A stretch of DNA of 64,000 nt from Candidatus Poribacteria bacterium (GCA_965215015.1 OZ244042.1:10768-74767), one strand, 5' to 3'; counted from the first letter of the stretch, positions 1 to 56,307 are shown. The notes: a model not told the origin generated them from the sequence alone. A program made the numbers and translations.

Positions 1-3000
1 TCGTGGAATCTCTAACTCAATTCCCAATCCCTCATCTCTAAGAGGTTGAGCGACGCGCCCGGTTTGGTGAAGCTCTTCGATTTCTTTTTTTCCTTTTCTC
101 TGGAGAAGCACTCGATACCGATTTGCATCAAGAAAAAGGATAGCCCATTTCCCCGTTGGCGTGAGGCTTGAATCGAGGTGAATATAGGAGGTCCGTAATT
201 TTTGAACGCTTGTGTTTTCAGCTTGTGCTGAGGTCGTAAATTTTTCGGAGACTAAGTTTCCGGTATTATCGCGTAGCACCTCGGAGGGAAGCCGTTTCCA
301 AGCGTTAATATCCGTTTGCCATTGATAGATTGCGAGATTTTCGGTCTCTCTTTGTAAGGTGGGGTCAAATTCCGCCGTTGCAGGATTCAGCCCCCAATTT
401 GTCTGCAAGCGATCTTTCAAAGCGTCCAAATCGAAACGGAACCTGAGGGCCGCAGCTTCGACCAACTGCTCGGCACTAGAATGTAATTCAACTTGGTATG
501 CTCTATTTTGTAATATTGGTAGGCGGGGAAGCGAGACAAAACGGAGATCGGGTTGAAATGAGATAGATGGCTCGATTGTATTGATGGAAAGCGTTATTAT
601 GCGTTCAGGAGCGGCTCCGATTGGGAGCACAACGTCAAATACCCGATCCAAGCTAAACGCGGTGAGTGCTTCATCAACCTTCAGGGTAAATTCGTTGACC
701 ACGAGAGATTGGGACCCTTTGTTATCAAACGAGCGGGGCTCATCGAGCTTGCCGATCACCTCATCCGTGTGGTCGTCATCGGGGGATTCCGGATCCGCAA
801 AGACATGAATCTGATGAAAGCCGGTGGACAACGGTTCTGCAAGGATTAACGTCACTATTGTTTCTTGAAGATGCGTGTCCCCCGACTGCCACGCATCAAT
901 TCTGACCAAGACACGCCCAAGCACATCTGCTTCAGGGTCAATTTGGTTATCCCCGTTCCGATCCGGATCCCCTTCTGCGAACCAAACCTCGATGACTACA
1001 TCAACTTTTTGGCCGCCATCATTGATAAGCTTGGTGGTAAGGGTATAAGCTCTTTTCTCCTTTGAAAAGGTGTAACGGAGGGGAGCGACTGCTGCCGAAG
1101 CGATGGCGATATTTGCTCCTTCCGGGACCTTGAGCGGTTTTTTGTCGGTACTGATGGTATGATTGGTCCGGTCAGTCACTACGATTTGATACTGCACCGT
1201 CTGCCCCCCTTTTGGGAGGGGAATTGCGGTTTGCAGCTTGTACCAATGCCCTCCGTTCACCGCGGGGGTGGGTGGTACCGGATGGGGTATCATCGCCACC
1301 GTACGTTCCTTGGATTCCACGGTGTCGCTCCAAACTACTTCTATCGACTTTAGCCCTGTGGGACCTTCATTGTCCACTATCAACGCGGAAAGGTTCAGTG
1401 TATTGGTGACTTGGGAGTCAATATCTTCACGGACTTCGAGGATAGCAGGTTGGTATGCCCAAAACTGCGCCCCTCCCACCGCTGTCCGCTGATCGTCGAA
1501 AGCGAGGAGGCGGACAATACCTTGTCCGGCGGGGATATCTTCTGGAATAGGAATGCGAATCGCGCCGAACTCGCCCTGCCATACTTGGATACCAGCCTTT
1601 TGTTGCTGCAAATTGTTGAGCAAATTATCGTCTAAATTGTTGGCAAACAGTGCTATTGCGGACATCGTTCCTGCGCTGAAATCGGTCGCCTTGCGAAACT
1701 CGACCGCTCCCCTAATCGGCGAAAATTGGTGCTGCCCAACAACATTATGACGAATGATCAGCTCTTTGTTCGGATCGACTGCAACGCTCTCCAACTCGAC
1801 CTGAATCTCTAGTTCTGGCACAGCGAGGCGCGTCGCTGGATCACCGAAGAGGGTATACTGCATTGCACTAGGGAGCCACAGTTGTGGTGCGGTAATCATA
1901 AACTGCGTCTTAGCATTGGTGATGATTGCGCCGAGTGTTGACGGTTTAACAGTGAAGATGGAGGTAAAGAGATTTCTATCGAACGCCGCATTGACTGTTG
2001 CAAAGGTCAAGCGGGTCGCGCTCAGGACACCGATGGCACCGGCACTGCCCATCAGAAATTGCTCGCTTAAACTACGCTGCCCAAATTGCAGGGGTTGATC
2101 AAATTGCCCATTGAGACATGTTGTGGTGATAATAAACGGCAGGTGCACATTTCGCAAGCCCTCTGCATCTGCGATGCGGAAAATGCCCTCATCCGCCCAC
2201 GTTTGGGTGCCACCGTGCCCCGAATATTCGACGACGAGAACGCCCTCATTAATTGTCGCCAGAATCGCTCGATTGGTGCGTTCTGGACTCCCAATCTGCC
2301 GTAGGTACACCTTGCGAGTATCGTAGGCGACAGGAATATATTCCTCAATGAGTTGCTTGCTGGATCGCTCAAAAATGTCGTCCCCGACGTTGTCCACCTC
2401 ATTATCTGCTACCTGCATCAGCCTGCCCTGCCATAAGCCGGGCTGTCGCTTTGCCTCATAATTGATAATCTTTTTCACCATACCGTCCAACTCGTGTGGT
2501 AGCTGTACTGGAAGTCGCCCAATAAACATATCCGGCAGTGGGTCATCGCCACTGACTGTGACAAAGCGGTGATCCATCGCAGTTTCTCCACTCGCCGGTG
2601 CCCAACCGTGAAACGTCGGCACGTAGATGGGATAGAGGTCGTAGTCCTTGTCGAGCACACTCCTATATAGCTTGACAATTGCCCCTTTATAATCATAGTG
2701 TGCATCACCGACTAACAGGACGTATGTAGGCTTGGGCGCGCGCCAATGGGTGTAGGTGTAGTGCAAAAACTTTTGGATAGCGAGGGGGTTAAAAATTCCG
2801 TGGTTGAATTGATCATACACCTCTTCGACATCAACCACCATGACTGACAAGCCCTGTGACCGCCGAAAATCTGCAAGGGACTGAATGTTATTAATAAAAT
2901 CTCCGTGAGAGATAATAATGTAATCCGCTTGATTCCCAGGATTGCTGATTACCGATGGCTTGGCAGGAGCAATGTGATTCACCTGAATATATCGCGCTTG

Positions 3001-4812
3001 CTCAACCACAAAGTAGCCGACTAGCGATGTTACATTATCCTCAAAGGTTAGCTGGAAATTCCCGTCCACCCGTTCAACCCGACCGTTGGCGAGTTTTGCA
3101 ACTATACTTCCATTGCGAATCTGATACACATCAACATCGGGACGATGAATGTTTGTTAAACGGTACTGAACTCGTCCCGTCCTTCTCGGCTCGGTTTCCG
3201 AGTTAAACCCAAGCACTCCTTCGGACACCTTAAAGGTATGCCAATAATCGATCTCAAACCAATCCAGATAGAAATCGGGTTCGCCTGCCGGTGTACCGTT
3301 GCGGGCTTCGGCACGAATTCTCAGAACATTTGTATCCTCCGAATGACTAAATCGCCACGGTTCAATTTGGCGCGCAACCAACGGTGCGGCTTGCTGCCGC
3401 CACTCAGCGACTTGCCCAAGTTGTGCGTCGTTAAATAGAATGCGCGCTTGATGTCTGGCGTTCCTTTCACGGGAGGCCCCTTGAAACTTAATTCGGATCT
3501 CGGCATTCCGATTTACCAACCCTCTCGGTGCTACATGATGGAGTTGAATCGGAAAATCCTTTTGGCTCAATCTATTGTCTACTCCACCTGTCAGGCTTTC
3601 CCAGAAATAGTGATCTGCCTGCTCAGATTTCACATCAAGCAGTCGGTCATACTTAAGGTCCTGTTCAAAGCGTACAGTTTTCTTGAAAGCAAGCGGAGTG
3701 GGCACATTTGGCGTTTTTGGAGCAGCGTCTCTAACAGCTACCTGTGAACGACCAACACCGCCCCAACTCAACCAATACACGTTAGTATCAGTAAATCTAT
3801 CCCCAATTGGGGCTTGCCCATAAAACACAATTGAGTCGTCCCGATCGAATCTACCGTCTGTATCGTGGTCAAAGATGTGAAGCCCAACCCGGCGTCCGCG
3901 GTTTTCCATTTTAAGGGTCTCAAGTTCAATATCCACAGAATTGGCACCGGCGCGTCTAAGCTGACTATATGTTACTTGATAAATCCCTGTTTGGCTGATC
4001 ACAATCTTATATCTATTTAAGGGTTTACTAGCGTGTTGCACTGCAGGGGCAGCTGGGGCACTTTGGGGTGAGCGTCGCCATGCCTTCGCCTGATCGTAAT
4101 TGAGCAGTTTTACCTGAAAGAGTTGCTCAAAAGCCTGTGATGATTCTACGACAGAGAACGGGGGAGCAAGTTGTCTTGAAGTCCGGTGGGATTGGGGAGA
4201 TGAGTGAGTCCAATTGAAGTCAATTCGGATCAGCAGCTCGTGGTAAATTTTGAGCTGCAATCTGGCAGGATTATACTGAATCGGTTGAATTTGGAGCTGT
4301 GCAACCCGCTGTCCACGGATAAGCCCGATCGGCGTGACCTCTACGAGTTTGGTCGGGTAGGGACGATCCTGTCTGTAAAAGTTCGTGTCCATGATGAGTG
4401 TTGGTTGGGGAGTGGCGAGATTCAATGGTTGGGCGGGGATAATGCGCTCGGTTTGGCGGACTTCAAGTCGTGAGTCAATCACGGTCACATGCGATGAGGC
4501 ATCAATGGGAATCCCAATTAGCTGGGAGTAAGCAGGTAGGCTAGGGCGTCCCACATCTGTCGTGAGGGTTGCCCCTGTGAAAGAAATCCTCGTGAAGGTG
4601 CGTCTATTGATTTTTTGCGAACTAAATTGCAGCGTAGGCACCTCAAATTTGACGAGGAGACTATCCGTGTCTGCTTGGATAATTTGTAACGGAGATTTCG
4701 CGGCGACAGCAGCGACAGAAAGCCAAAAAGTTAGAAGTGTGTGAAACGTGATGCGTAAGTGAACCGATGATACCGGTTCCAGCTGTTGATTTCCTCTTAA
4801 CATAGACACCAT
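1..4812 (-). CDS. Peptidase C25 (gingipain/PorU-like) family giant secreted protein; 3' end runs off window start. Absent from supplied ORF track.
   Basis: Hand translation of the minus strand is open from ATG 4812 (second ATG 4803) to nt 1. An in-frame TAA lies just upstream at 4833-4831, and only short ORFs occur on + in this span. N-terminus MVSMLRGNQ...LLTFWLSVAAVAA is signal-peptide-like. ISHGDFINN...YVLLVGDAHYDYKG, EYSGHGGTQTW (His, about nt 2215-2230) and ITTTCLNGQFDQP (Cys, about nt 2096-2120) match the C25 catalytic dyad. Confidence 0.8.
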   Translation of the reverse strand, partial: MVSMLRGNQQLEPVSSVHLRITFHTLLTFWLSVAAVAAKSPLQIIQADTDSLLVKFEVPTLQFSSQKINRRTFTRISFTGATLTTDVGRPSLPAYSQLIGIPIDASSHVTVIDSRLEVRQTERIIPAQPLNLATPQPTLIMDTNFYRQDRPYPTKLVEVTPIGLIRGQRVAQLQIQPIQYNPARLQLKIYHELLIRIDFNWTHSSPQSHRTSRQLAPPFSVVESSQAFEQLFQVKLLNYDQAKAWRRSPQSAPAAPAVQHASKPLNRYKIVISQTGIYQVTYSQLRRAGANSVDIELETLKMENRGRRVGLHIFDHDTDGRFDRDDSIVFYGQAPIGDRFTDTNVYWLSWGGVGRSQVAVRDAAPKTPNVPTPLAFKKTVRFEQDLKYDRLLDVKSEQADHYFWESLTGGVDNRLSQKDFPIQLHHVAPRGLVNRNAEIRIKFQGASRERNARHQARILFNDAQLGQVAEWRQQAAPLVARQIEPWRFSHSEDTNVLRIRAEARNGTPAGEPDFYLDWFEIDYWHTFKVSEGVLGFNSETEPRRTGRVQYRLTNIHRPDVDVYQIRNGSIVAKLANGRVERVDGNFQLTFEDNVTSLVGYFVVEQARYIQVNHIAPAKPSVISNPGNQADYIIISHGDFINNIQSLADFRRSQGLSVMVVDVEEVYDQFNHGIFNPLAIQKFLHYTYTHWRAPKPTYVLLVGDAHYDYKGAIVKLYRSVLDKDYDLYPIYVPTFHGWAPASGETAMDHRFVTVSGDDPLPDMFIGRLPVQLPHELDGMVKKIINYEAKRQPGLWQGRLMQVADNEVDNVGDDIFERSSKQLIEEYIPVAYDTRKVYLRQIGSPERTNRAILATINEGVLVVEYSGHGGTQTWADEGIFRIADAEGLRNVHLPFIITTTCLNGQFDQPLQFGQRSLSEQFLMGSAGAIGVLSATRLTFATVNAAFDRNLFTSIFTVKPSTLGAIITNAKTQFMITAPQLWLPSAMQYTLFGDPATRLAVPELEIQVELESVAVDPNKELIIRHNVVGQHQFSPIRGAVEFRKATDFSAGTMSAIALFANNLDDNLLNNLQQQKAGIQVWQGEFGAIRIPIPEDIPAGQGIVRLLAFDDQRTAVGGAQFWAYQPAILEVREDIDSQVTNTLNLSALIVDNEGPTGLKSIEVVWSDTVESKERTVAMIPHPVPPTPAVNGGHWYKLQTAIPLPKGGQTVQYQIVVTDRTNHTISTDKKPLKVPEGANIAIASAAVAPLRYTFSKEKRAYTLTTKLINDGGQKVDVVIEVWFAEGDPDRNGDNQIDPEADVLGRVLVRIDAWQSGDTHLQETIVTLILAEPLSTGFHQIHVFADPESPDDDHTDEVIGKLDEPRSFDNKGSQSLVVNEFTLKVDEALTAFSLDRVFDVVLPIGAAPERIITLSINTIEPSISFQPDLRFVSLPRLPILQNRAYQVELHSSAEQLVEAAALRFRFDLDALKDRLQTNWGLNPATAEFDPTLQRETENLAIYQWQTDINAWKRLPSEVLRDNTGNLVSEKFTTSAQAENTSVQKLRTSYIHLDSSLTPTGKWAILFLDANRYRVLLQRKGKKEIEELHQTGRVAQPLRDEGLGIELEIPR

Positions 4813-4842
4813 ACTTTTCAGTTGGAAAATTTACCCCAAATG

Positions 4843-6387
4843 TTAGTCAAGCACTTCAATCTCCAGCTGATTCAGGGTCCGCATCACCCCTTCACCAAAC
4901 TCCAGCATAGAGTCGGATTCCAACTCGCTGCCAGCGAGTTGAATATGATTAGCATCCGCCTGGATTTGACCAAGCGTTGGCTCCATTGCTACCCACTTGC
5001 CCACATATACTTCGGGCCAAAAATGGTAGTAGAAAGCGTCGCGTTGAAATACAAGCCCTGCACAAACTCGCGCGGGGATACCAACGGAGCGTGCCATTGC
5101 AATCATTAGGACTGTGTGTTCTGTACAATCTCCCTCCAGCGATTCTAATGTTTGTAATGCCGAGCCAAACCCAACCTTCAGGTTCTTGTCATAGATGCTT
5201 TCATACACCCATCGACACAATTTCTGTGCGGATCTCCAAGCATTCATCTCACCATCAAGCACTTCAACGGCTTTCGCCCGGATCGTTGGGTGTTCCGCTT
5301 GGATATACACGGTTGATTTCAAGAACTGCGCGAGTTCCTTGGCCTCATGTTGGTTCTGTATCGGCAGGTTCAAAGTTTCCGTGCGATCAATCACGGGTAC
5401 GTTGATTTCAATCTCTCCATGGCGGGGGTCATTATCCACCCGCAGCTTCTGACGAGGGTTAATCATCACTGCTTTGTCCAACCGCCCTTCGGTCAGGTAC
5501 AAATACGCTTTGAAATAGCGGGCACGAGGAGTCGGGGTGCCTCCTTGGGCAAAGATCTTTGTATTCAGAATAACGTCAACTTCTCCAGATTCACCGAGTG
5601 CCGTTTGCATATTAGTCTTCGCCAAGACCATTTTTAGCCCCATCAGTCCGACCTCCAACCGATACGTTGTGCCATCGTGTCCCAACCATTGCGTCGTCGT
5701 GAATCCTCCCATGATGTCCATTGTGTAACTGACGACGTAGACCGGCTCCACTTTGCCATCAAATTCGATCTGGGCTTCTCGAAGGACTCTGACATCTGTT
5801 TTCACGGGCTTCATGAGGTCCAAATTGAATACGTGCAAGGTATGTGCATCACCGATCCGGATGCTACGTTGCAGCAGGAAGTAACTGATTACCTGTTCAA
5901 AAATTGTATCGCCTGAAATAGACATCTGGGTGTGAGTCGTTTTTCCTGCAAGACTTGTCTCTAGGTGAGCAATACCATCCTTGATTCGCCCTTCAACCCG
6001 TTTCTCTTGTCCTGTCTCATTGGAGGTGGTGATAAAATAGCGGGGTACGAGATCCATACCGACATGTGAGATTCGTGTTGTTGTGAGTCTTAATCCGGTG
6101 CCAGTGCGCTTGAGGTCCATCACCATATCAGCACGGACCCGAATAGTCTCCTCGCCTTCAAATCTTGATTTTTCCATATAGATATGGGCGTACCCGATTT
6201 TCGTGCCCATCAGTGTTAGGTTTAACCAGTCATCTTGAGGCAACTGCATCATTTTCTCAATCTCCGCCAGATCGATTTTTACCCATTGCCCTACCACACT
6301 TCCAACTAAAATAAAAAGCAAACAACAGGCACAAAAAATCTGTTGTCTCATCAGAAAATATTCCTTCTCCAATCCATCGTGTATCAT
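4843..6387 (-). CDS. Membrane-anchored transglutaminase-like (Cys-His-Asp) domain protein with DUF3857-like N-terminal region
   Basis: 514-aa ORF with N-terminal TM helix IFCACCLLFILVGSVVGQW. C-terminal core GDCTEHTVLMIAMARSVGIPARVCAGLV...YHFWPEVYVGKWVAMEPT is typical of the TGase-like cysteine protease fold. Lies 30 nt upstream of, and co-oriented with, the C25 gene. Confidence 0.8.
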   Translation of the reverse strand: MIHDGLEKEYFLMRQQIFCACCLLFILVGSVVGQWVKIDLAEIEKMMQLPQDDWLNLTLMGTKIGYAHIYMEKSRFEGEETIRVRADMVMDLKRTGTGLRLTTTRISHVGMDLVPRYFITTSNETGQEKRVEGRIKDGIAHLETSLAGKTTHTQMSISGDTIFEQVISYFLLQRSIRIGDAHTLHVFNLDLMKPVKTDVRVLREAQIEFDGKVEPVYVVSYTMDIMGGFTTTQWLGHDGTTYRLEVGLMGLKMVLAKTNMQTALGESGEVDVILNTKIFAQGGTPTPRARYFKAYLYLTEGRLDKAVMINPRQKLRVDNDPRHGEIEINVPVIDRTETLNLPIQNQHEAKELAQFLKSTVYIQAEHPTIRAKAVEVLDGEMNAWRSAQKLCRWVYESIYDKNLKVGFGSALQTLESLEGDCTEHTVLMIAMARSVGIPARVCAGLVFQRDAFYYHFWPEVYVGKWVAMEPTLGQIQADANHIQLAGSELESDSMLEFGEGVMRTLNQLEIEVLD

Positions 6388-6572
6388 TGCATTTTCAGCT
6401 TTCCGTTATAATAGCACAAGTTAAGGTGGTGGGCAATCGAAAAGCGTCTGCCAAACTAACCTTCGGAAGGTTTCTCACATATGCTTCTTGACACCAATAA
6501 TTCAAAAATGGTATCATATCGCAACGACTTTAATCTCTTCCTATCATGAAGTAATCCCCGCAGGAGAAAAAT

Positions 6573-19574: not shown

Positions 19575-22500
19575 ATGAAAAAAGAGGAACACAAAGGCAC
19601 AGAGAGGCGTAAAAATAAACACAAACGTGCAACGGCGAGAAGTTGTAAAGAATCTTTATTATTTTTTATTTTTGCGTCCTTGCGCCCAAGCATCCTTGCG
19701 TTCTTTTCAAATGCGTCTTTGCGTCCAAGCAGTAAAATAAAAAGATCGATTCAAATCTCCAGCTTGAAATCGGGACTCACAGCAGTTTACGTTTGCCTGA
19801 TTTTGAGCTGTATTCTACTCATCACACCGGACACCTCTGCCGAAGATTACGCACTTATCATTGGCGGCGTTGGCGGTGAGAAATCCTTTTATGATGAGTT
19901 TTGGAACGCGACCACACGAATGCGTGAACTGCTGATAGAGGAATACAGCTACGCATCGGAGCATGTCACCTTTCTGTTTGAAGATGACGGAGAGGTGTCG
20001 AATCTGATCGACGGGAAATCAACGAAAGCAGGAGTTGAAGCCGCTTTCACTAATCTACAGGCCCGGGTACAGCCGAGAGATCGGTTCCTCCTTTTCATGG
20101 TGGGTCATGCAACCAAAACCACAGGTGGACTAAAATTCAACTCACCCGGACGGGATATCAGGGGCATAGAATGCGCTGCGCTCATTGAGAAGATTCCCGC
20201 TGAGCAGATGATCTTAATCTTCGGATTTCCTTACAGCGAGCGCGTCGTCTCTCAAGTGAGCAAGGAGGGGCGAACAATTATAACCGCGTGCTCAGCGCGT
20301 GAAGGGTACATGCGTTCAGGATTTGGGAACATCTTCATTGACGCCTTTTCCGATGGTGCCGCTGATGCGGATGACAATGGAGCAATCTCACTGTTAGAGG
20401 CGTTTCTGTACACTCAAAAACGGGTGAAAACGTGGTACGAAAACGATGGTTCTATTCAATCGGAGCATCCCCATCTTGACGATAACGGGGATGGGAACGC
20501 TTCACGCAAAGAGTTACCAAACGCTTCAGATGGTGCCCTCGCTCAAAGCACCTACCTTGGAAAACGTCGTTCAGCACTCGTTGCCTCTGTGTCAGCCGAA
20601 GTGGACTTGAATCGTCCCAATGGTGAATTGACAGAAACGCTTAACGAGGCTGACTACCCACCATCCCAACGCACCTCAATTTCCTATAATTTCGTTTCAA
20701 AAACAGATGAAGCACAGATCGAAGGGTTGCTCGCTGATGCACCGAAGGCGGATGATCATCCCGATAGCGGCGCGGTTGTGCTTTGGGAAACAGAGGTGAT
20801 GAACGTCAACGAAGACAGCAGCTACATCTATTCGACGCGGCGGATTGTAAAGATTTTCAATGATACGGGGCATAAATTTGGTAAGGTTAGCATCCCTTAT
20901 ACCCGCGGAAACGATGACATCACGATTCATCACGCTCGAACACTCACCCCCGATGGGCGTGTAATCGATCTGGACCAGCGGAGAATCGTGAAAAATATCC
21001 CACCCCCGAGTGCGGTCGAAGCAGGGTTATTTGTAGACGCTCGCCTCATGCACTTTTCAATGCCAGAGATGTCCGATGATTGCATCATTGACTACGCCTA
21101 CTCGTCCAACAATCGAGGACATTTGATGCAGGGCGAATTTTGGCATCAGGCCTACTTTCAAGCCTCGGTGCCTGTGCTGCACTACCGTTTCACGATTCAT
21201 GCGCCGAAAAAGAAAACTGTCTATTACCAGATTAACAGTCCGCAAACCATCGGGAGTGAACCGACAATCACGGAGAATCGCTATACACGTACTTATACAT
21301 TTGAGATACATGATGTTCCCCCGCTCCGTGAAGAGGCGTTTATGCCAGCCATCGCGGACCTCGCTTACAGCATCAACATCACATCGCTTGATTCGTGGAA
21401 TAAACTTATGGAGTGGTACGGCACTCTTATTCGTGAGCAAGATTATGTGACACCAGAAATCGAGCAGAAGGCGAAGGCGTTGCTGAGAGGGGCATGGAGC
21501 CGAAAAGAGAAGATTAAACGGCTTTACGAATACGTTGCGACGAACATTGATTATGTCGGCATCGAACTCGGAATATGGGCGATAAAACCGCACTCGGCGC
21601 CCGAAATCTTTAAGGAAGGATATGGAGACTGTAAGGATAAGACAACGCTGCTCAGTACGATGCTCTCCGCGGTGGGCATCCAGTCCTATCCGGTGCTGAT
21701 TTCCGCGGGTGAATCCAGCAGGGTTGTCCGTGAAATCCCTTCACTCGCGTACTTTAATCACATGATTCTCGCTGTCGAGGAAAGTGACGAGGGGGGGCTC
21801 ATCTGGCTAGATGCGACAGCGGAGACCTGCGCGTTTGGAGATCTCCCCGCCAGCGATCAGGATCGGTGGGCACTCATCGTCAACCCTGATTTTCTCATGA
21901 AGGAACGGGAAGGGATAGACCAAGGGTTTACTTCAAATTCCGAGAAAATTGGCGGAATGCGGGAGCAATTATATCGATTCGCAAAAAGTCCAACCATTGG
22001 AGCGGCAGCAAACCTCAAAAGTGTTGAGACGCGGATACAGGTGGAAGATGATCTATCAGTAGAGGTCACTCAAACACTCACCGTAACCGGGGCGTTCAAC
22101 ACGAAACTACGAAGCCAATTGAAATATATCAATCCTAATGAGCAATCGAAGTTTCTGCATGAATACATGGAGCTGGACGATCGCGCAAAGTTGGAGAAGG
22201 TTTCGACCCCAAAACTTGATGCCATGGAGGACAAATTGAAGATTGTCCTCACATGGCGATGTGAGGATTACCTCTTTGCTATTGGACAGCAGTATGTTCT
22301 TGAGTTACCGCTTGTCAAGCATCCTTACGCTGCGCTGCTCAGTGAAGAGGATAGGACGCACCCGGTCATCCTCGGCAAAGCGATTACTTTTGTGGATGAG
22401 GTTATCGTCAATTTATCGTCTCTATTTTCGGTGGATTCTGTGCCTGAAGACCGTGAAATTCATAACCGAGTTGGGGCTATCCAACTCAAGTATACAAAAT

Positions 22501-22640
22501 CGAAACGAAAAATGGTAATGAAGCAGACACTCCGTTTCCATCGTCCAACAGTCCATGTCAATGAGATTCTCGACCTAAAGGCACTTGTCCGACAAGCCTC
22601 AAACAAGGGGACAAAGCGGGTATTGTTAGTCCACAGGTAA
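19575..22640 (+). CDS. Fusion protein: legumain-like (peptidase C13, clan CD) domain + DUF3857-like region + transglutaminase-like domain
   Basis: C13-like DYALIIGGVGG...FLLFMVGHAT (His, about nt 20095) and IITACSAREG (Cys, about nt 20285). TGase core GYGDCKDKTTLLSTMLSAVGI...YFNHMILAVEE...WLDAT (about nt 21620). The first ~63 codons are low-complexity with DNA direct repeats; an in-frame TTG at 19764 would give a clean signal peptide. Confidence 0.75.
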   Translation: MKKEEHKGTERRKNKHKRATARSCKESLLFFIFASLRPSILAFFSNASLRPSSKIKRSIQISSLKSGLTAVYVCLILSCILLITPDTSAEDYALIIGGVGGEKSFYDEFWNATTRMRELLIEEYSYASEHVTFLFEDDGEVSNLIDGKSTKAGVEAAFTNLQARVQPRDRFLLFMVGHATKTTGGLKFNSPGRDIRGIECAALIEKIPAEQMILIFGFPYSERVVSQVSKEGRTIITACSAREGYMRSGFGNIFIDAFSDGAADADDNGAISLLEAFLYTQKRVKTWYENDGSIQSEHPHLDDNGDGNASRKELPNASDGALAQSTYLGKRRSALVASVSAEVDLNRPNGELTETLNEADYPPSQRTSISYNFVSKTDEAQIEGLLADAPKADDHPDSGAVVLWETEVMNVNEDSSYIYSTRRIVKIFNDTGHKFGKVSIPYTRGNDDITIHHARTLTPDGRVIDLDQRRIVKNIPPPSAVEAGLFVDARLMHFSMPEMSDDCIIDYAYSSNNRGHLMQGEFWHQAYFQASVPVLHYRFTIHAPKKKTVYYQINSPQTIGSEPTITENRYTRTYTFEIHDVPPLREEAFMPAIADLAYSINITSLDSWNKLMEWYGTLIREQDYVTPEIEQKAKALLRGAWSRKEKIKRLYEYVATNIDYVGIELGIWAIKPHSAPEIFKEGYGDCKDKTTLLSTMLSAVGIQSYPVLISAGESSRVVREIPSLAYFNHMILAVEESDEGGLIWLDATAETCAFGDLPASDQDRWALIVNPDFLMKEREGIDQGFTSNSEKIGGMREQLYRFAKSPTIGAAANLKSVETRIQVEDDLSVEVTQTLTVTGAFNTKLRSQLKYINPNEQSKFLHEYMELDDRAKLEKVSTPKLDAMEDKLKIVLTWRCEDYLFAIGQQYVLELPLVKHPYAALLSEEDRTHPVILGKAITFVDEVIVNLSSLFSVDSVPEDREIHNRVGAIQLKYTKSKRKMVMKQTLRFHRPTVHVNEILDLKALVRQASNKGTKRVLLVHR

Positions 22641-32126: not shown

Positions 32127-32201
32127 TAAAATGGTTAAATTGAAAACGCACCGCTCACATTTCACTTACACCATTGCAACGAAGAAAAAGGGGCACAACT
32201 A

Positions 32202-41377: not shown

Positions 41378-44300
41378 ATGTTTAAGCATCATTTCATTTC
41401 CGATTCGATGGGAATTTGCAAACAACGGCAGCACCTCATCACACTTATTAGTCTATTGATGTGCATCGTAGGTTATCAAAATGTATACCCCCAACAACAG
41501 ATTGCCCAAGATGCCTACGCTATTTTTCAACAGAGCTGCCTCATCTGCCATGGACCCGACGGTGCCTATCGAGAGACACTCCTAATGGAACACAACTCAC
41601 TCATCGAAAACGGGACAGTGGTCCCCGGAAACCCCAATGCCTCCGAACTGTATAACCGGCTCCTGACGACTGAGATAGCCAAACGGATGCCCCTTGGACA
41701 ACCCCGGCTATCCACTCAAGCGATTGCCACCATCCGAAACTGGATATTCGCTGGCGCACCCGATTGGGCGGCAACCCCCGCAGCCGATAGACGCTTTATC
41801 TCTCCCGGTGAAATACTCAATACCATCGAGACTCACGTCATGTCGCTGGCACCGTTTGACCGTGCCTTTGCCCGGTACTTCACAATGACACACCTCTATA
41901 ACGCAGGTGAGACCACGCGAGCTCTTGACAGCTATCGTAACGGCCTCTCGAAACTGGTCAATAGCCTCTCATGGGGGAGTACCGTCACCAACCCCCAACC
42001 CATTGACCGACAAGGCACCATCCTCTACATTGACCTGCGACACTACGAGTGGGATCGCAATGATGGGTGGGGGCAGATAGAAGCGGCATATCCCTATCAC
42101 ATCGGGTTTGATGCACCGACACAGACCGCGCTACGGGCCCAACTGACCCGGTTACAGACGGCGATGAAGTCTGATATACCATCGGTTCATGTCGACTGGT
42201 TTATAGCACAAGCCTCTTTACCTCCACTCTACCATGATTTACTCTCTCTCCCCTTAACGGATAAAGAGTTAGAGACCCGATTAGAAGTCGATGTTGTCCG
42301 TAACCTGCAAAATGCACCGGGGGTGCGTGTCTGGCGGGCCGGCACCAACAATTCAGGTGTCTCCAATCACAACCGAGTGATAGAACGCCACACCTCTCGC
42401 TATGGTGCCTATTGGAAAAGTTACGACTTTGGGGGGAGTGTGGGTACACAGAACATCTTCACCCATCCCCTGTCATTCACCCATGATGGTGGTGAGGTTA
42501 TCTTCAACCTACCCAACGGGTTACAGGGATACTACCTTGCCAATGGGGCCGGTTTTCGCCTAAATGAGGCACCGATAAACATTGTTTCTAATCCCGCAGC
42601 GAGTGATCCGACGGTGCGGAATGGTTTATCCTGTTTCGGTTGCCACACAGAGGGTATGAAGCCATTTGAGGACCAAGTCCGTTCGGTGATAGCGAATAAT
42701 ACCGCTCCCACTTATGACAAAGCGCAGGCGTTGCGGCTCTACGTGGCAAAATCAGAGATGAACGCGCTTGTGGGTGAAGATATGAATAGGTACAGGGTTG
42801 CCCTTGAAGCGACGGGCGGGGCGTTTGATGACATTGAACCCATCTCCCGTTTCCACGAGGCATTTCAGGAGGAGGTAGACACAGCACACGCCGCAGCCGC
42901 GGTTGGGTTAGAGCCGGAGGCGTTCTTGGAAAAGATACGTGAGAATATAGGGCTACAGGATATCGGCTTGCTGGTGTTAGACAGTGAGGCTGGAAGTATG
43001 AAACGGGACACCTGGACATCGAGTTTTCGGGATATAGTTTTTGCGTTGGATTTCCCGGAGCGTTTCACCCCTCCCACGGCGATAACCCCGCCGGTAGTGA
43101 CACCGGGTACGGTTGTGTATATCCCGGACCCAAACCTGCGTGCGGCAATAGCGGAGGCACTGGACAAGAGCCCCAATGCTCCGATTACTGCCGAGGAGAT
43201 GGCAAAGTTGAGCAGGCTCGATGTGCCGCGCAGGGGCATCCGTGATTTGACAGGGCTGCAGTATGCAACCAATCTGACACGGTTAAATATTAACGACAAT
43301 CAGGTCTCCGACATCTCACCGCTAGCGGGCTTGATCGAACTGCGCGAGCTCCGGATTCACGACAACGACAACCTCTTGTCCGATATATCGCCTGTGAGAG
43401 GCTTAACCAATCTCACTTATCTTCAGTTTGACCGCTCTACAGTCTCTGATATATCTCCCGTGAGAGGCTTAACCAATCTTACTTACCTTGAGTTTGACAA
43501 CACTTTGGTATCCGATATATCTCCCGTGAGAGGCTTAACAAATCTCATTACCCTTAAGTTTGGTCACACTTCGGTATCCGATATATCTCCGGTGAGGAAC
43601 TTAACAAATCTCACTCGCCTTGAGTTTGAGCACACTTTGGTATCTAACCTATTGCCAATTGCGAGATTAATCAATCTGGAGCGGTTACATTTGGGAAGTG
43701 ATAATATCTCCGACCTGTCGCCGGTTTCAGGATTAATCAACCTCAAACACATTAGTGGTGGTTGGGGCAGCTCTATATCCGATTTATCGCCCTTGGCAGG
43801 CTTAACAAAACTGGAGCAGATACATATGCACGGCGGAAAGATATCAGATCTCACGCCTTTAGCAGGCCTAACCGGCTTGAAGGAACTGCATTTTCGGGAC
43901 AACGACATATCGAATCTCGCCCCCCTCGCAGGGTTAACACAGCTAACTCGTCTGCAGCTCGCGAACAACAATATATCGGATCTCTCCCCCCTTGCAGGGT
44001 TAACCAACTTGAAATGGCTAGTGATCCATGACAACGAGATTTCTGACATTTCTCCGCTGCAGGGACTCCGCGAGAATATAACGACGTTCGTTTGGCATGA
44101 CAACCCGGGATTCCCAAAAGTGGGACCGTCAATCGAGGGGCCGTGGTTATGGGTTGTATTACCGGAAACAAGACCGAGTAGCAGTAAGGATTTACTGTCA
44201 GAAGTGAGCGGGGGGGCGGTAACAGAGACGGAGATTGCTACCCATGGGGCAACCGTGGGAAGTTCTGTAGGTGATGATGTATGGACCTACCGCACACTCC

Positions 44301-45649
44301 CGCCTACGGGCTGGGCTAATGTTCGCCAAATGCTTGACGGCCACATCGATGGTGCCAGCCTCTACGGCACGGTGTCCTTGCATTCACCACGACAACAGGA
44401 CACAACACTATACGTTGGCAGTCATAACGATTTTAAGGTCTGGCTCAACGGGACTTTGATTTACGAGTCTCTCCGTTACCATGCGAGTTTCGGTTACACG
44501 GATTCTCTGCCGGTCACGCTGAAGCAGGGAAGAAATGTGCTATTGGTAGCCGTTAGAGCCCAGTATAATGCCTTTTTTGGGTTTGAACCCGGCACCGAAT
44601 ATACTGTGGCGAACCCCGGTGTCGGATACACTTTTTCCAAGACACCCATTCATATAGGCGATACCTTTACCCTTAATCTTCGCGCCGAAACGGTCTCCGA
44701 CTTGGCAGGCTGGCAGTTCGATATTGCCTTTGACCCGGCTGCCCTCGAAGCCATTGACGTCAGCGAAGGCAATTTCCTGAAGGCAGATGGGGGCTCCACC
44801 TTCTTTCAGGGTAGGAGCATCGATAACGCGACAGGTAAAATCTCAGGACTCAGTGCGGCGCGATTGGCTGCCCAAGGTGTAAATGGCACCGGCACCCTGC
44901 TGCAGGTCAGGTTCAGGGCGAAATCTGCCGGTGAAACAGAGTTGGTGCTGCAAAACTTTCAGTTTGGCTCCATCACCGGCGATACTATCCCTGCAGGACC
45001 GCGTCAAATTCGCATCGCTGTCGAGGGACGCCTGGCGACCGGGGACGTGAATCGAGATGGTGTGGTCAGCATTTTGGATCTCATTCTCGTCGCACAGCAG
45101 TTGGGGAAAAAGGTGGCCCCCAACTCACCGGTAGATGTCAACCGAGATGGTGTTGTCAGCATCCTTGACCTTATCGGCATCGCGCAGGGGATCGGGAACA
45201 CCACAGCACCTGCCGCCCCGGCACCCTCCTCACTGGAGGTAAATCCTGAGACCATAGCGGCATGGATTGCACAGGCACAGGTGGCAGATGACGGTTCCCT
45301 TGCCTTCAAACAGGGTATCGCAAATCTCCAAAACCTGTTAGCCGCGTTGATTCCTGAAGAGACTGCGTTGTTGGCAAACTATCCGAATCCGTTTAACCCG
45401 GAGACGTGGATACCGTATCAGTTGGCAACCCCTGCGGAAGTTACATTGACCATCTATGATAGGAACGGGGAGGTCGTTCGCCGGTTAGCCGTGGGACATC
45501 GAGGCGCGGGTATGTATCAGAGTCAAAACCGTGCGCTATATTGGGACGGACGGAATCAGCTGGGTGAACCTGTCGCCAGTGGCCTCTATTTTTACACACT
45601 GACAGCAGGCACATTCACGGGGACGCGGCGGATGTTGATACTCAAATAA
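41378..45649 (+). CDS. Giant secreted multidomain protein: dihaem cytochrome c region + leucine-rich repeats + cohesin-like + dockerin-like + T9SS C-terminal sorting domain
   Basis: CxxCH haem motifs at about nt 41536 (SCLICHG) and about nt 42633 (CFGCHTEG). About 15 22-aa LRRs (LTNLTYLxFDxTxVSDISPVRG). Cohesin-like WQFDIAFDPAALEAIDV. Two dockerin repeats DVNRDGVVSILDL. C-terminal NYPNPFNPETWIPYQL...WDGRNQLGEPVASGLYFYTL...RMLILK. Confidence 0.85.
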   Translation: MFKHHFISDSMGICKQRQHLITLISLLMCIVGYQNVYPQQQIAQDAYAIFQQSCLICHGPDGAYRETLLMEHNSLIENGTVVPGNPNASELYNRLLTTEIAKRMPLGQPRLSTQAIATIRNWIFAGAPDWAATPAADRRFISPGEILNTIETHVMSLAPFDRAFARYFTMTHLYNAGETTRALDSYRNGLSKLVNSLSWGSTVTNPQPIDRQGTILYIDLRHYEWDRNDGWGQIEAAYPYHIGFDAPTQTALRAQLTRLQTAMKSDIPSVHVDWFIAQASLPPLYHDLLSLPLTDKELETRLEVDVVRNLQNAPGVRVWRAGTNNSGVSNHNRVIERHTSRYGAYWKSYDFGGSVGTQNIFTHPLSFTHDGGEVIFNLPNGLQGYYLANGAGFRLNEAPINIVSNPAASDPTVRNGLSCFGCHTEGMKPFEDQVRSVIANNTAPTYDKAQALRLYVAKSEMNALVGEDMNRYRVALEATGGAFDDIEPISRFHEAFQEEVDTAHAAAAVGLEPEAFLEKIRENIGLQDIGLLVLDSEAGSMKRDTWTSSFRDIVFALDFPERFTPPTAITPPVVTPGTVVYIPDPNLRAAIAEALDKSPNAPITAEEMAKLSRLDVPRRGIRDLTGLQYATNLTRLNINDNQVSDISPLAGLIELRELRIHDNDNLLSDISPVRGLTNLTYLQFDRSTVSDISPVRGLTNLTYLEFDNTLVSDISPVRGLTNLITLKFGHTSVSDISPVRNLTNLTRLEFEHTLVSNLLPIARLINLERLHLGSDNISDLSPVSGLINLKHISGGWGSSISDLSPLAGLTKLEQIHMHGGKISDLTPLAGLTGLKELHFRDNDISNLAPLAGLTQLTRLQLANNNISDLSPLAGLTNLKWLVIHDNEISDISPLQGLRENITTFVWHDNPGFPKVGPSIEGPWLWVVLPETRPSSSKDLLSEVSGGAVTETEIATHGATVGSSVGDDVWTYRTLPPTGWANVRQMLDGHIDGASLYGTVSLHSPRQQDTTLYVGSHNDFKVWLNGTLIYESLRYHASFGYTDSLPVTLKQGRNVLLVAVRAQYNAFFGFEPGTEYTVANPGVGYTFSKTPIHIGDTFTLNLRAETVSDLAGWQFDIAFDPAALEAIDVSEGNFLKADGGSTFFQGRSIDNATGKISGLSAARLAAQGVNGTGTLLQVRFRAKSAGETELVLQNFQFGSITGDTIPAGPRQIRIAVEGRLATGDVNRDGVVSILDLILVAQQLGKKVAPNSPVDVNRDGVVSILDLIGIAQGIGNTTAPAAPAPSSLEVNPETIAAWIAQAQVADDGSLAFKQGIANLQNLLAALIPEETALLANYPNPFNPETWIPYQLATPAEVTLTIYDRNGEVVRRLAVGHRGAGMYQSQNRALYWDGRNQLGEPVASGLYFYTLTAGTFTGTRRMLILK
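43300..44060 (+). repeat. Intragenic ~66-bp tandem DNA repeats encoding the LRR units of the giant protein
   Basis: Consecutive units such as gatatatctcccgtgagaggcttaaccaatctcacttatcttcagtttgacc are repeated with high nucleotide identity. Confidence 0.8.
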
Positions 45650-50460: not shown

Positions 50461-50853
50461 TAATTTTTGGATGGTCAAGAATCAATAACCCCGTCCTAAA
50501 GGTCAGAGCTTGTACGAAGCGAATGCCACCCGCCGCTCCACAAGCTAAACCGTTGACTACACAGATGGTAACTTAGCTGTCTCTGCGTGGTAGCAGTCAC
50601 CAGATGATACGGATGCCTCCTTATGGAGAATTACTGATGTTCGTCCCAGTTGTAAACAAAAAATCAAAAACTGTTGATGCCTACCAAGCCCGCCCGTGCC
50701 CGGCGGTGGATTAAACAGGGCACAGTCAATCCCTTCTTTAACAAAGGTGTGTTCTGTGTTCTATTAAATATTGAGCCATCTGATAGCCAACTTGACGATA
50801 AGGAGCGCAGTTGCCTCCACACCATAGAAAGATGGGGAACTGCGAAGATCTTG

Positions 50854-52544: not shown

Positions 52545-52631
52545 TAGGGGTGTGGCCACCTTTTGTTTGTAGGGTGCAACAATCGTTGAACCCTATAACA
52601 TGTGTTCACCCAAAAATAGATAGGCGAACGA

Positions 52632-53522: not shown

Positions 53523-53553
53523 AGTAAACTTACCTTAGGAGGTTATTTTTTTA

Positions 53554-56223: not shown

Positions 56224-56307
56224 CGCAAGTTGCCACTTAAAGCCCAAATGCCCGGTGGGTTGGCCGCCAATTCTTGGCTCATTGAGCCTAGAACAGTTTA
56301 GTGAGGG

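What the first reader, a model, noticed from the sequence alone, without database searches (positions are those of the whole stretch)
1..6387. Split 'transglutaminase-like + clan-CD peptidase' operon; the C25 giant gene is invisible to the ORF track
The six-frame track shows only short ORFs for nt 1-4800, yet the minus strand is one uninterrupted frame (ATG 4812 to nt 1, more than 1600 codons) encoding a C25 gingipain/PorU-type peptidase (YSGHGG His, TTCLNGQF Cys). It directly follows, on the same strand, a membrane-anchored DUF3857-like/transglutaminase-like Cys-His-Asp protein (4843-6387). Both the TGase-like fold and clan CD are cysteine protease/transferase folds. Their tight pairing here, together with a fused version at 19575-22640, suggests a dedicated two-enzyme processing or cross-linking module. 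It may be linked to T9SS cargo, since PorU, the T9SS sortase, is a C25 protein.
Basis: partly seen in the sequence, partly recalled or inferred. Interest (0 to 1): 0.7.

Follow-up and report, generated by a model that had tools for sequence, protein, structure and literature searches.

The report
PorU-like C25 peptidase gene in Poribacteria
The window edge cuts through a real 2091-residue cysteine peptidase gene from a sponge-associated Poribacterium that most resembles PorU, the type IX secretion sortase; its tight pairing with a transglutaminase-like gene occurs in only one sub-lineage, so it is not a conserved two-enzyme module.

Summary
The sequence-level observation holds. The minus strand is open from 4812 to nt 1 (1604 codons). 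It was missing from the ORF track only because the gene runs off the window edge. The full protein has 2091 aa: signal peptide, gingipain-type prodomain, PorU-like core, C25 catalytic domain (His866/Cys899, invariant in 119/119 homologs) and a T9SS type-A C-terminal sorting domain. The gene 30 nt upstream encodes a secreted DUF3108 β-barrel plus transglutaminase-like cysteine-protease core, not DUF3857.

The "dedicated module" reading fails. Among 76 scorable Poribacteria species, 16 of the 17 closest relatives have the pair and 0 of 59 divergent ones do. Elsewhere the two genes lie megabases apart. The "fused version" (19575-22640) carries a legumain-like (C13) clan-CD domain that lacks the catalytic Cys. 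It is not C25.

The T9SS link is plausible but unproven. The PorU model scores 410 bits (cutoff 420), a Chloroflexota homolog without the sorting domain scores 306, no porV is adjacent, and core T9SS genes could not be checked. Poribacteria were reported in 2014 to have many such sorting domains but no Por machinery, so this is a candidate processing enzyme. Moderate-to-low interest.

The parts
1..4812 (-). 5' 4812 nt (codons 1-1604 of 2091) of a C25 / PorU-like cysteine peptidase gene; the 3' end lies beyond nt 1
   Evidence: Open frame. 100% identical to the first 1604 aa of P0121, a 2091-aa protein on a 5.94 Mb Poribacteria contig.
4699..4812 (-). N-terminal signal-peptide-like segment (aa 1-38, ...LLTFWLSVAAVAA)
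   Evidence: Read from the sequence; no signal-peptide predictor was run, so this is an inference.
4198..4683 (-). Gingipain-type prodomain (Propeptide_C25, aa 44-205)
   Evidence: Pfam 80.5 bits against cutoff 22. Aligns to the Kgp and RgpB prodomains 5MUN and 4IEF_A.
2923..4014 (-). PorU-like N-terminal region (aa 267-630) preceding the catalytic domain
   Evidence: NCBIfam NF033707 aligns aa 267-1006 to model positions 7-742.
1825..2922 (-). Peptidase_C25 catalytic domain (aa 631-996); His866 at nt 2215-2217, Cys899 at nt 2116-2118
   Evidence: Pfam E 4e-87. Aligned to PorU 6ZA2 residues 402-795. Dyad invariant in 119/119 homologs. Codons verified.
1..1824 (-). Start of a roughly 870-aa region (aa 997-~1880) with no family hit; in the full protein it leads to a PorU-like penultimate domain and a type-A CTD (aa ~1883-2091, outside the window)
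   Evidence: No Pfam hit in this region. PorU C-terminal alignment at aa 1883-2083. TIGR04183 scores 27.4 against cutoff 23 at aa 2004-2078.
4813..4842 (-). 30-nt spacer between the TGase stop codon and the C25 ATG; no terminator-like or promoter-like site on this strand
   Evidence: In all 16 paired relatives the C25 frame opens at or just after the TGase stop and the first ATG, where one lies nearby, is 31-40 nt downstream; in the called L001 gene the two overlap by 4 nt.
4843..6387 (-). Secreted DUF3108 + transglutaminase-like protein (514 aa from ATG 6387; public gene call starts at Met13, nt 6351, giving 502 aa)
5668..6219 (-). DUF3108 domain (aa 57-240): open beta-barrel resembling DUF1849, LprG, RseB and LolB
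   Evidence: Pfam 37.2 bits against cutoff 26. AF2 model pLDDT 80.5. Foldseek 6NTR E 7e-8; 3MH8, 2V42, 2IN5 and LolB are weaker.
4954..5271 (-). Transglutaminase-like core (Pfam aa 373-470, extended here to Asp478): Cys421 (nt 5125-5127), His455 (5023-5025), Glu469 (4981-4983), Asp478 (4954-4956)
   Evidence: Pfam 70 bits. PDB 3ISR by sequence and by fold. Conservation. Codons verified.
6408..6436 (-). Sigma-70-like promoter match (TTGCCC-17-TATTAT, with TG) upstream of the TGase gene; possible operon promoter
   Evidence: This is a consensus match only; 6 sites were found against 3.0 +/- 1.8 expected.
19575..22640 (+). The 'fused version': C13/legumain-like clan-CD domain (aa 86-345, nt 19830-20609; His178 kept, Pro219 at the nucleophile position) + DUF3857 (aa 414-584) + TGase core (Cys686/His729/Asp746) + DUF3858 (aa 925-1017)
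41378..45649 (+). Candidate cargo: LRR + cohesin + dockerin protein ending in a type-A CTD (nt 45380-45646)
   Evidence: Pfam FlgD_ig 37.8 bits. TIGR04183 24.5 against cutoff 23. Own CTD HMM 92.8 bits, at the extreme C-terminus.
53554..56223 (+). Candidate cargo: 889-aa protein with no other family hit, ending in a type-A-like CTD (nt 55954-56220)
   Evidence: Pfam FlgD_ig 31.8 bits. TIGR04183 20.3, below the cutoff of 23. Own CTD HMM 98.2 bits.

Best explanation
The window starts inside a single-copy gene that is conserved across the Poribacteria I sampled. It encodes a 2091-aa exported cysteine peptidase of family C25 whose core is most like PorU, the C-terminal signal peptidase/sortase of type IX secretion.

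Proposed mechanism (inferred): Sec export via the N-terminal signal peptide; a gingipain-type prodomain keeps it latent until removed; its own type-A C-terminal domain (CTD) takes it to the outer membrane or surface. There the His866/Cys899 dyad removes the type-A CTDs of the many CTD-tagged poribacterial surface proteins, for example the ORFs at 41378-45649 and 53554-56223, and possibly transfers them to a surface glycolipid as PorU does.

In one sub-lineage, which includes this genome, a rearrangement placed the gene directly behind a gene for a periplasmic or secreted DUF3108-barrel + transglutaminase-like cysteine protease, and the two are probably co-transcribed. That adjacency is a lineage-specific gene-order feature, not a conserved functional module.

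Shown: gene structure, domains, catalytic residues, CTD, distribution of the adjacency. Inferred: the sortase role, the activation route, and co-transcription.
For: Open frame and full-length identity. Propeptide_C25 and Peptidase_C25. PorU model NF033707 scores 410.3 bits over model positions 7-742, and TIGR04183 scores 27.4 against cutoff 23. The best PDB match is PorU 6ZA2 (E 2e-35), aligning both the catalytic domain and the C-terminal Ig-like + CTD region; gingipain catalytic domains match far more weakly (E 5e-9). His866/Cys899 are invariant in 119/119 homologs, with 33-residue spacing as for RgpB His211/Cys244.

Each large Poribacteria contig appears only once among the listed C25 hits, with orthologs at 45-100% identity. 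All 24 CTD matches in 1.73 Mb of Poribacteria DNA lie at the extreme C-terminus, and 6 are on non-C25 proteins. Kamke 2014 (PMC3909097) reported many TIGR04183 domains in Poribacteria but found no Por structural genes, so the pathway was left open.

A divergent PorV/PorQ-like barrel family is widespread in Poribacteria and sits next to genes for a CTD protein, an Omp85/BamA-like protein and a GT9 heptosyltransferase. Adjacency statistics: 16/17 against 0/59. Tight spacing with no terminator between the two genes.
Against: The PorU model score is below the curated cutoff (410.3 < 420). A Chloroflexota (Ardenticatenaceae) homolog with no CTD scores 306 bits over the same model positions, so the PorU-like core is not specific to T9SS. 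Canonical PorU has no Propeptide_C25 prodomain, since model position 7 aligns at aa 267, and it is about 1150 aa, not 2091.

No porV gene lies next to the C25 gene in any of three Poribacteria contexts, whereas relatives from KSB1/Calditrichota-type contigs do have one. The Poribacteria PorV/Q-like barrels match only the N-terminal motif (about 40 bits, cutoff 90). T9SS core genes (Sov/SprA, PorK/L/M/N) were not seen in the window and were reported absent from poribacterial single-cell genomes. The literature places T9SS only in FCB phyla.
Confidence: 0.5

Rival explanations
1. The C25 protein is not the sortase. It is itself a secreted, gingipain-like degradative or adhesive protease, that is, a CTD-tagged cargo. 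It would be made as a zymogen with a prodomain, displayed on the cell surface through its long beta-rich region, and used to digest sponge-matrix or other proteins.
For: It has a gingipain-type prodomain that aligns to the Kgp and RgpB prodomains. It is very long, with about 870 aa of unassigned sequence between the catalytic domain and the CTD. The closest homologs outside Poribacteria (30-32% identity) include a Chloroflexota protein with no CTD. The PorU score is below cutoff and no porV is adjacent. NCBI names a homolog only 'C25 family cysteine peptidase'.
Against: Both the PDB and NCBIfam best matches are PorU over its specific N-terminal region and C-terminal domains, not the gingipains. 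The gene appears single-copy and conserved across the sampled Poribacteria, in housekeeping contexts, which fits machinery better than a variable effector. No haemagglutinin or adhesin domains were detected.
Confidence: 0.3
2. One reading: the TGase-like protein and the C25 peptidase form a dedicated two-enzyme processing or cross-linking module. For example, the DUF3108 barrel binds a lipid-linked acceptor and the pair processes or attaches CTD cargo.
For: The genes are tightly spaced or overlapping in all 17 paired genomes. Both proteins are exported, both families are present across Poribacteria, and several chromosomes carry both genes. The DUF3108 fold resembles lipid/lipoprotein/LPS-binding barrels, which would suit a glycolipid-anchoring step. 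A clan-CD-like + TGase fusion exists at 19575-22640.
Against: 0/59 divergent species have the pair. In one genome the genes are about 4.8 Mb apart, and the TGase gene sits between pth and ftsY in two divergent genomes. L017 and L020 keep the TGase context but have no C25 gene there. C25 relatives in other phyla have no TGase neighbour. The fusion involves different families and a peptidase-like domain with no nucleophile Cys.
Confidence: 0.12
3. The long open frame is a non-functional remnant or an assembly artefact.
For: None beyond the fact that the source is a metagenome-assembled genome.
Against: The frame is intact in about 90 full-length orthologs at 45-100% identity, with an invariant catalytic dyad and a conserved CTD.
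Confidence: 0.01

Closest known systems
PorU (PG0026), the T9SS C-terminal signal peptidase/sortase of Porphyromonas gingivalis (PDB 6ZA2; NCBIfam NF033707)
   Same: C25 catalytic domain with the same His/Cys motifs (YxGHGG, TxTC). PorU-type N-terminal region. PorU-like penultimate domain and a type-A CTD at the C-terminus. It is the best match in both PDB and NCBIfam.
   Different: Score 410 against the cutoff of 420. About 940 extra residues, comprising a gingipain-type prodomain at the N-terminus and about 870 aa after the catalytic domain. No adjacent porV. The host phylum lies outside the FCB group, and no T9SS core has been reported for it.
Gingipains RgpB/Kgp (MEROPS C25)
   Same: Propeptide_C25 prodomain, C25 catalytic dyad with 33-residue spacing, C-terminal CTD.
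   Different: The catalytic domains are much more distant (E 5e-9 against 2e-35 for PorU). The PorU-type N-terminal region is present, and no adhesin or haemagglutinin domains were found.
'C25 family cysteine peptidase' proteins with prodomain + PorU-like core in Chloroflexota (e.g. P0218, Ardenticatenaceae)
   Same: Same Propeptide_C25 + PorU-like core + C25 layout; 30-32% identity over about 60% of the query.
   Different: About 1000 aa, no CTD, and a lower PorU-model score (306 bits).
Transglutaminase-like putative cysteine protease CHU_… of Cytophaga hutchinsonii (PDB 3ISR) and BDI_1141 (PDB 3KD4)
   Same: The TGase-like core fold and the Cys/His motifs of the neighbour gene.
   Different: The neighbour has an N-terminal DUF3108 open barrel instead of DUF3857, and Glu at the canonical Asp position. 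None of these proteins has an experimentally defined function, to my knowledge.
Legumain / Peptidase_C13 (clan CD), for the N-terminal domain of ORF 19575-22640
   Same: 22/40 family members hit PF01650. The G-H motif is invariant and the strand order fits a caspase-like alpha/beta fold.
   Different: No Cys at the nucleophile position (Ser 26, Pro 12, Ala 2 of 40; Pro219 in the window protein). The window domain itself gives no Pfam hit even at E<=10.

Membership tests
Peptidase family C25 (Pfam PF01364 / MEROPS C25) | Catalytic-domain profile match above the gathering threshold | tested here: met
   293.3 bits against cutoff 23; aa 631-996 cover model positions 1-374 of 374.
Peptidase family C25 (Pfam PF01364 / MEROPS C25) | Catalytic His and Cys in their conserved motifs | tested here: met
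   His866 (YSGHGG) and Cys899 (TTTCLNG) align to PorU YAGHGG/TATC and RgpB YTGHGS/VACVNG. Invariant in 119/119 homologs.
PorU, T9SS sortase (NCBIfam NF033707 equivalog) | Score at or above the curated equivalog cutoff | tested here: not met
   410.3 bits against cutoff 420. Poribacteria P0205 scores 380 and a CTD-less Chloroflexota homolog scores 306.
PorU, T9SS sortase (NCBIfam NF033707 equivalog) | Own C-terminal type-A sorting domain (TIGR04183) | tested here: met
   27.4 bits against cutoff 23 at aa 2004-2078. Also aligns to the PorU CTD in 6ZA2.
PorU, T9SS sortase (NCBIfam NF033707 equivalog) | PorV partner: adjacent porV gene, or a PorV-family protein in the genome | tested here: inconclusive
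   No porV next to the C25 gene in L001, L002 or L089, unlike L085/L086. Poribacteria have short barrels of about 280 aa that match only the PorV/PorQ N-terminal motif (about 40 bits, cutoff 90).
PorU, T9SS sortase (NCBIfam NF033707 equivalog) | Genome encodes the T9SS core (Sov/SprA translocon, PorK/L/M/N) | not testable with these tools
   Only 64 kb of the genome and selected loci were accessible, and none of these genes was seen. Kamke 2014 found no Por structural genes in single-cell genomes.
PorU, T9SS sortase (NCBIfam NF033707 equivalog) | CTD-tagged cargo proteins present in the same genome | tested here: met
   ORF 41378-45649 (TIGR04183 24.5 against cutoff 23). ORF 53554-56223 (20.3, but 98 bits on the own CTD HMM). 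All CTD hits are at the extreme C-terminus.
PorU, T9SS sortase (NCBIfam NF033707 equivalog) | CTD cleavage and transpeptidation activity | not testable with these tools
   Requires biochemistry or proteomics.
Gingipains | Propeptide_C25 prodomain | tested here: met
   80.5 bits against cutoff 22; aligns to 5MUN and 4IEF_A.
Gingipains | Catalytic domain closer to gingipains than to PorU | tested here: not met
   RgpB E 5e-9 and Kgp E 7e-4, against PorU E 2e-35.
Transglutaminase-like superfamily (PF01841), neighbour gene | Core-domain profile match and fold | tested here: met
   70.1 bits against cutoff 23. 3ISR by profile, E 2e-10, and by Foldseek, E 6e-10.
Transglutaminase-like superfamily (PF01841), neighbour gene | Cys-His-Asp catalytic triad | tested here: inconclusive
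   Cys421 and His455 are invariant. The canonical 'DPT' position is Glu469 here and is Asp in 5 of 13 aligned homologs. Asp478 is invariant but non-canonical.
DUF3857-TGase-DUF3858 (BDI_1141-like) architecture, as claimed for the neighbour | DUF3857 N-terminal domain | tested here: not met
   The neighbour has DUF3108 instead. ORF 19575-22640 does have DUF3857, TGase and DUF3858.
Conserved functional gene pair / operon (TGase-like + C25) | Adjacency maintained across divergent lineages or arising independently | tested here: not met
   16/17 species at >=78.5% TGase identity against 0/59 below that. The genes are 4.8 Mb apart in one genome. No TGase lies near C25 in other phyla.
Clan CD cysteine peptidase (C13-like), N-terminal domain of ORF 19575-22640 | Homology to a clan CD family | tested here: met
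   Indirect only. The domain finds 1787 representatives, and 22/40 aligned members hit Peptidase_C13 and 2 hit C14. The window domain itself has no Pfam hit.
Clan CD cysteine peptidase (C13-like), N-terminal domain of ORF 19575-22640 | His-Cys catalytic dyad | tested here: not met
   His178 is invariant. The nucleophile position is Pro219 in the window protein (family: Ser 26, Pro 12, Ala 2 of 40). Cys239 is not conserved (Thr in 35/40).

The most novel reading that the evidence does not exclude
Poribacteria, a phylum outside the FCB group and reported to lack Por/T9SS structural genes despite abundant type-A CTD proteins, run a divergent CTD-sorting pathway that has not yet been recognised. 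In this reading, the prodomain-bearing PorU-like giant peptidase is the CTD peptidase/sortase. The short PorV/Q-like barrels encoded next to BamA-like and LPS-heptosyltransferase genes serve as its outer-membrane partner. In one clade, the lipid-binding-barrel + TGase-like protein has been recruited as a co-expressed accessory.
Probability: 0.25. Interest if true: 0.65.

Novelty: new member of a known kind. Interest (0 to 1): 0.33.

Why it matters

What remains of interest is narrower. Poribacteria are dominant sponge symbionts whose many leucine-rich-repeat, cohesin/dockerin and other 'eukaryote-like' surface proteins end in the T9SS type-A sorting domain, yet no Por machinery had been found for them (Kamke 2014). 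A phylum-wide, catalytically intact PorU-like peptidase that carries the same tag is a concrete, testable candidate for the missing processing step. The now-available closed Poribacteria chromosomes make it straightforward to check whether a T9SS-like translocon exists outside the FCB superphylum.

If the rival explanation is right and this is a secreted gingipain-like protease, the gene is an ordinary exoprotease.

Tried and rejected
1. Exact-sequence look-ups of the window's own proteins (514-aa TGase form, P0121, P0001) found no contig on record. I used close and distant homologs instead.
2. Single-sequence AlphaFold of the N-terminal domain of ORF 19575 gave pLDDT 39.6, which is unusable for fold search. 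I replaced it with an exhaustive homolog search plus family scans.
3. Direct tests of the 'C25 fusion' claim were negative: BLASTP of ORF 19575 against the C25 protein (best E 6.7), Pfam at E<=10 on aa 1-413, and a PDB sequence search.
4. I looked for a PorV partner. The L021 ORF and the related Poribacteria barrels match only the N-terminal PorV/PorQ motif, far below the cutoffs, so they cannot be called PorV.
5. I treated the near-threshold PorU score as proof of orthology only until the Chloroflexota control scored 306 bits, and then dropped that reading.
6. Literature searches for Poribacteria with T9SS, type IX secretion, gingipain, PorU2, and for Hydrogenedentes with type IX secretion, gave nothing relevant apart from Kamke 2014. 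The DUF3108 search gave 5 papers whose titles and abstracts did not address its function; I did not read them further.
7. The cluster look-up returned no source names for any of the window proteins.
8. Base composition shows no sign of a foreign island.
9. One search used wrong minus-strand coordinates, trimming the C-terminus; I redid it.
10. T9SS core genes could not be searched genome-wide with the available tools.

Full report
**1. Observation**

Translating the minus strand from nt 4812 to nt 1 gives 1604 codons with no stop. The ORF lister shows only short ORFs there because, by its definition, it omits ORFs that run off the window. The 'invisible giant gene' is therefore an edge artefact of the track and not a biological oddity. 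The translated fragment is 100% identical to the first 1604 residues of a 2091-aa protein (P0121) encoded on a 5.94-Mb contig. Homologs that carry a source name are labelled Candidatus Poribacteria, and all 80 related genome loci are Poribacteria MAGs or closed chromosomes.

**2. The C25 protein**

- **Domains.** Pfam finds Propeptide_C25 (aa 44-205) and Peptidase_C25 (aa 631-996, E 4e-87).
- **NCBIfam.** The best model is the T9SS sortase PorU (NF033707) at 410.3 bits over model positions 7-742, just under the curated cutoff of 420. The last ~90 residues match the T9SS type-A sorting domain TIGR04183 above its cutoff (27.4 against 23).
- **Solved structures.** P. gingivalis PorU (6ZA2) is by far the best match (E 2e-35). 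It aligns both the catalytic domain and the C-terminal Ig-like + CTD region. The N-terminal domain aligns to the Kgp and RgpB prodomains, and the gingipain catalytic domains match much more weakly.
- **Catalytic residues.** His866 (YSGHGG, nt 2215-2217) and Cys899 (TTTCLNG, nt 2116-2118) align to the PorU and RgpB catalytic residues. They are invariant in 119/119 aligned homologs and are spaced 33 residues apart, as in RgpB.
- **Architecture.** The protein is a hybrid: signal peptide, gingipain-type prodomain, PorU-type core, about 870 aa with no family hit, a PorU-like penultimate domain, then the CTD.

**3. Specificity control**

A Chloroflexota (Ardenticatenaceae) homolog that lacks any CTD still scores 306 bits on the PorU model over the same positions. 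CTD-bearing relatives from other phyla score 300-375, and another Poribacteria ortholog scores 380. The PorU-like core is therefore shared by a wider 'prodomain + PorU-like core' C25 group. A sub-threshold score cannot by itself establish T9SS-sortase orthology.

**4. The neighbour gene**

- ORF 4843-6387 (-) has DUF3108 (aa 57-240), not DUF3857, followed by Transglut_core (aa 373-470).
- Public gene calls start at Met13 (502 aa). The N-terminus (MRQQIFCACCLLFILVGSVVGQ) looks like a cleavable signal peptide rather than a membrane anchor.
- Cys421 (GDCTEH) and His455 (YYHFWPEVY) are invariant. The canonical Asp of the 'DPT' motif is Glu469 here, and is Asp only in distant relatives. Asp478 is invariant.
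- An AlphaFold model built on 61 sequences (pLDDT 80.5) has two parts. The N-terminal part is an open β-barrel resembling DUF1849 (6NTR) and, more weakly, LprG, RseB, YmcC and LolB. The C-terminal part is a TGase-like cysteine-protease core resembling 3ISR, 3KD4 and TglA.
- From these folds I infer a periplasmic or secreted cysteine protease/transferase with a lipid- or lipoprotein-binding module. No experimental function is known for this family.

**5. Is the pair a module?**

- **Within the paired clade.** The C25 ATG follows the TGase stop by 30 nt with no terminator-like site. In all 16 paired relatives the C25 frame opens at or just after the TGase stop, with an ATG 31-40 nt downstream where one is nearby, and in the called L001 gene the two overlap by 4 nt. 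Co-transcription in these genomes is likely.
- **Across the phylum.** The adjacency is confined to one clade. I scanned one genome per species with a TGase alignment and got 80 Poribacteria loci at 46-85% identity. A tblastn search for the C25 gene found it immediately downstream in 16 of them. Among 76 scorable loci, 16 of the 17 with TGase identity >=78.5% are paired and 0 of the 59 below that are.
- **Separation elsewhere.** In a genome with 48%/60% identical orthologs, the two genes lie at 5.72 Mb and 0.94 Mb on the same chromosome. There, and in one other divergent genome, the TGase gene sits between pth and a coiled-coil gene followed by ftsY. L017 (79%) and L020 (74%) keep the window's upstream context (a divergent AP_endonuc_2 gene) but have other genes downstream.
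- **C25 contexts.** The C25 gene itself occurs in three unrelated contexts: TGase-C25-hemB; CTD proteins-C25-ribD-like; pdxA-C25-NIPSNAP.
- **Other phyla.** CTD-bearing C25 relatives from KSB1/Calditrichota-type contigs have no TGase neighbour. They are followed by a PorV/PorQ-family gene.
- **Conclusion.** The pairing reflects essentially one rearrangement inherited by one clade. The refutation criterion stated in the finding, no enrichment of the pairing in other genomes, is met.

**6. The 'fused version' at 19575-22640**

- Pfam shows DUF3857 + Transglut_core + DUF3858 in aa 414-1017 and nothing in aa 1-413, even at E<=10. BLASTP against the C25 protein is at noise level.
- Motifs in aa 86-345 looked caspase-like, so I searched that domain exhaustively. 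It has 1787 representative homologs, mostly stand-alone proteins of about 330 aa.
- 22 of 40 aligned members hit Peptidase_C13 (legumain family, clan CD) and 2 hit C14.
- Four caveats apply:
  - The domain is C13-like, not C25.
  - The family has an invariant Gly-His but no Cys at the legumain nucleophile position. That position is Ser 26, Pro 12, Ala 2 of 40, and Pro219 in the window protein.
  - The 'TACSA' cysteine is not conserved.
  - Only 4 of the 40 aligned family members share the DUF3857/TGase fusion.
- This is weak Rosetta-stone evidence, and it concerns different families on both sides.

**7. The T9SS link**

Evidence in favour:
- The window contains two more proteins ending in the same CTD. 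One is an LRR-cohesin-dockerin protein (41378-45649; TIGR04183 24.5 against cutoff 23). The other is an 889-aa protein (53554-56223; 20.3).
- An HMM built from these CTDs finds 24 matches in 1.73 Mb of Poribacteria DNA. All lie within 10 residues of the C-terminus, as expected for a sorting signal.
- Kamke et al. 2014 noted many TIGR04183 domains in poribacterial single-cell genomes. They stated that Por structural genes were not found and that the secretion pathway 'remains to be revealed'. They placed Poribacteria near Hydrogenedentes and Aerophobetes, not in PVC.
- A recent paper states that T9SS genes are absent outside FCB phyla. I found no later work connecting Poribacteria with T9SS.
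- The phylum-wide, apparently single-copy PorU-like peptidase is therefore a concrete candidate for the CTD-processing enzyme.

Evidence against or missing:
- The PorU score is below the curated cutoff and the Chloroflexota control scores 306 bits.
- The protein has an extra prodomain that canonical PorU lacks.
- No porV gene is adjacent to it in any of the three contexts.
- The only PorV-like proteins I could find in Poribacteria are barrels of about 280 aa that match just the N-terminal PorV/PorQ motif (about 40 bits against a cutoff of 90). They do align to true family members at both ends. They sit in a conserved context: CTD protein, Omp85/BamA-like, GT9 heptosyltransferase, barrel.
- The translocon and motor genes could not be searched genome-wide with these tools, and none lies in the window.

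**8. Verdict**

The sequence observation is real but ordinary in origin: the gene is simply cut by the window edge. The family assignments are right for C25 and the TGase core, and wrong in several details: DUF3857, the membrane anchor, the Asp of the triad, and the C25 fusion. The proposed two-enzyme module is not supported.

The best explanation is a PorU-like C25 peptidase that probably processes CTD-tagged surface proteins (confidence about 0.5). The main rival is that it is itself a gingipain-like secreted protease (about 0.3). In this one clade a secreted DUF3108-TGase-like protein is co-transcribed with it.

In novelty terms this is a new member of a known family, with a hybrid architecture, in a phylum where the corresponding secretion machinery has not been identified. 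That gives it some value as a lead but not high surprise.

Noticed in passing
window 19575-22640 (+), esp. nt 19830-20609: The N-terminal domain belongs to a large family (1787 representatives, mostly stand-alone proteins of about 330 aa) related to Peptidase_C13/legumain. The family keeps an invariant Gly-His but has Ser, Pro or Ala instead of the nucleophile Cys, plus an invariant Ser two residues later. It could be a Ser-His variant or a pseudo-peptidase branch of clan CD.
   Followed up: partly
window 10714-11553 (+) and 13820-17155 (+): A stand-alone N6/N4 DNA methyltransferase and a 1111-aa Eco57I/MmeI-like fused restriction-modification enzyme are inserted into an otherwise syntenic block (SAICAR synthase - small ORF - amidohydrolase - FGGY kinase). 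The 81%-identity relative L001 lacks both, so these are strain-specific R-M insertions.
   Followed up: partly
window 7361-8185 and 8160-9098 (+): Two overlapping ORFs match the N-terminal (positions 9-125) and middle (276-430) parts of the 561-position DUF6178 model. The same 274 + 312 aa split is present in L001, so it is a conserved split gene and not a sequencing frameshift.
   Followed up: no
window 41378-45649 (+): A 1423-aa protein with a cytochrome-c-like N-terminus, LRR, cohesin, dockerin and a type-A CTD has two paralogs at >=90% identity (1421 and 1420 aa) on the same 5.94-Mb chromosome. A phage-type integrase gene lies just upstream at 39484-40401 (-).
   Followed up: no
window 51567-59005 (+): The 889-aa CTD protein (53554-56223) sits inside what looks like a ZnuA/ABC-ATPase/ABC-3 permease metal-uptake operon, between the ATPase gene (52632-53522) and the two permease genes (56717-59005). 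An iron-dependent repressor gene (50674-51522) lies upstream.
   Followed up: no
L087 10001-10852 and L088 10001-10834 (Poribacteria chromosomes): A family of outer-membrane-barrel-like proteins of about 280 aa carries the PorV/PorQ N-terminal motif. It is widespread in Poribacteria and conserved in the gene order: CTD-tagged protein - Omp85/BamA-like (604 aa) - GT9 heptosyltransferase - barrel.
   Followed up: partly
L085 15511-16530 and L086 14880-15914: In distant CTD-bearing C25 loci from other phyla, the C25 gene is followed directly by a PorV/PorQ-family gene of about 340 aa that has no precomputed Pfam hit; close relatives of the L085 gene carry KSB1 and Calditrichota source names. In L086 the pair is embedded in a polysaccharide-biosynthesis cluster (Wzy, glycosyltransferases, PMT_2).
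   Followed up: partly
window 24729-25907, 30648-33638 (+): A BNR/sialidase-like protein and two tandem sulfatases, typical of the carbohydrate-degrading repertoire of Poribacteria.
   Followed up: no
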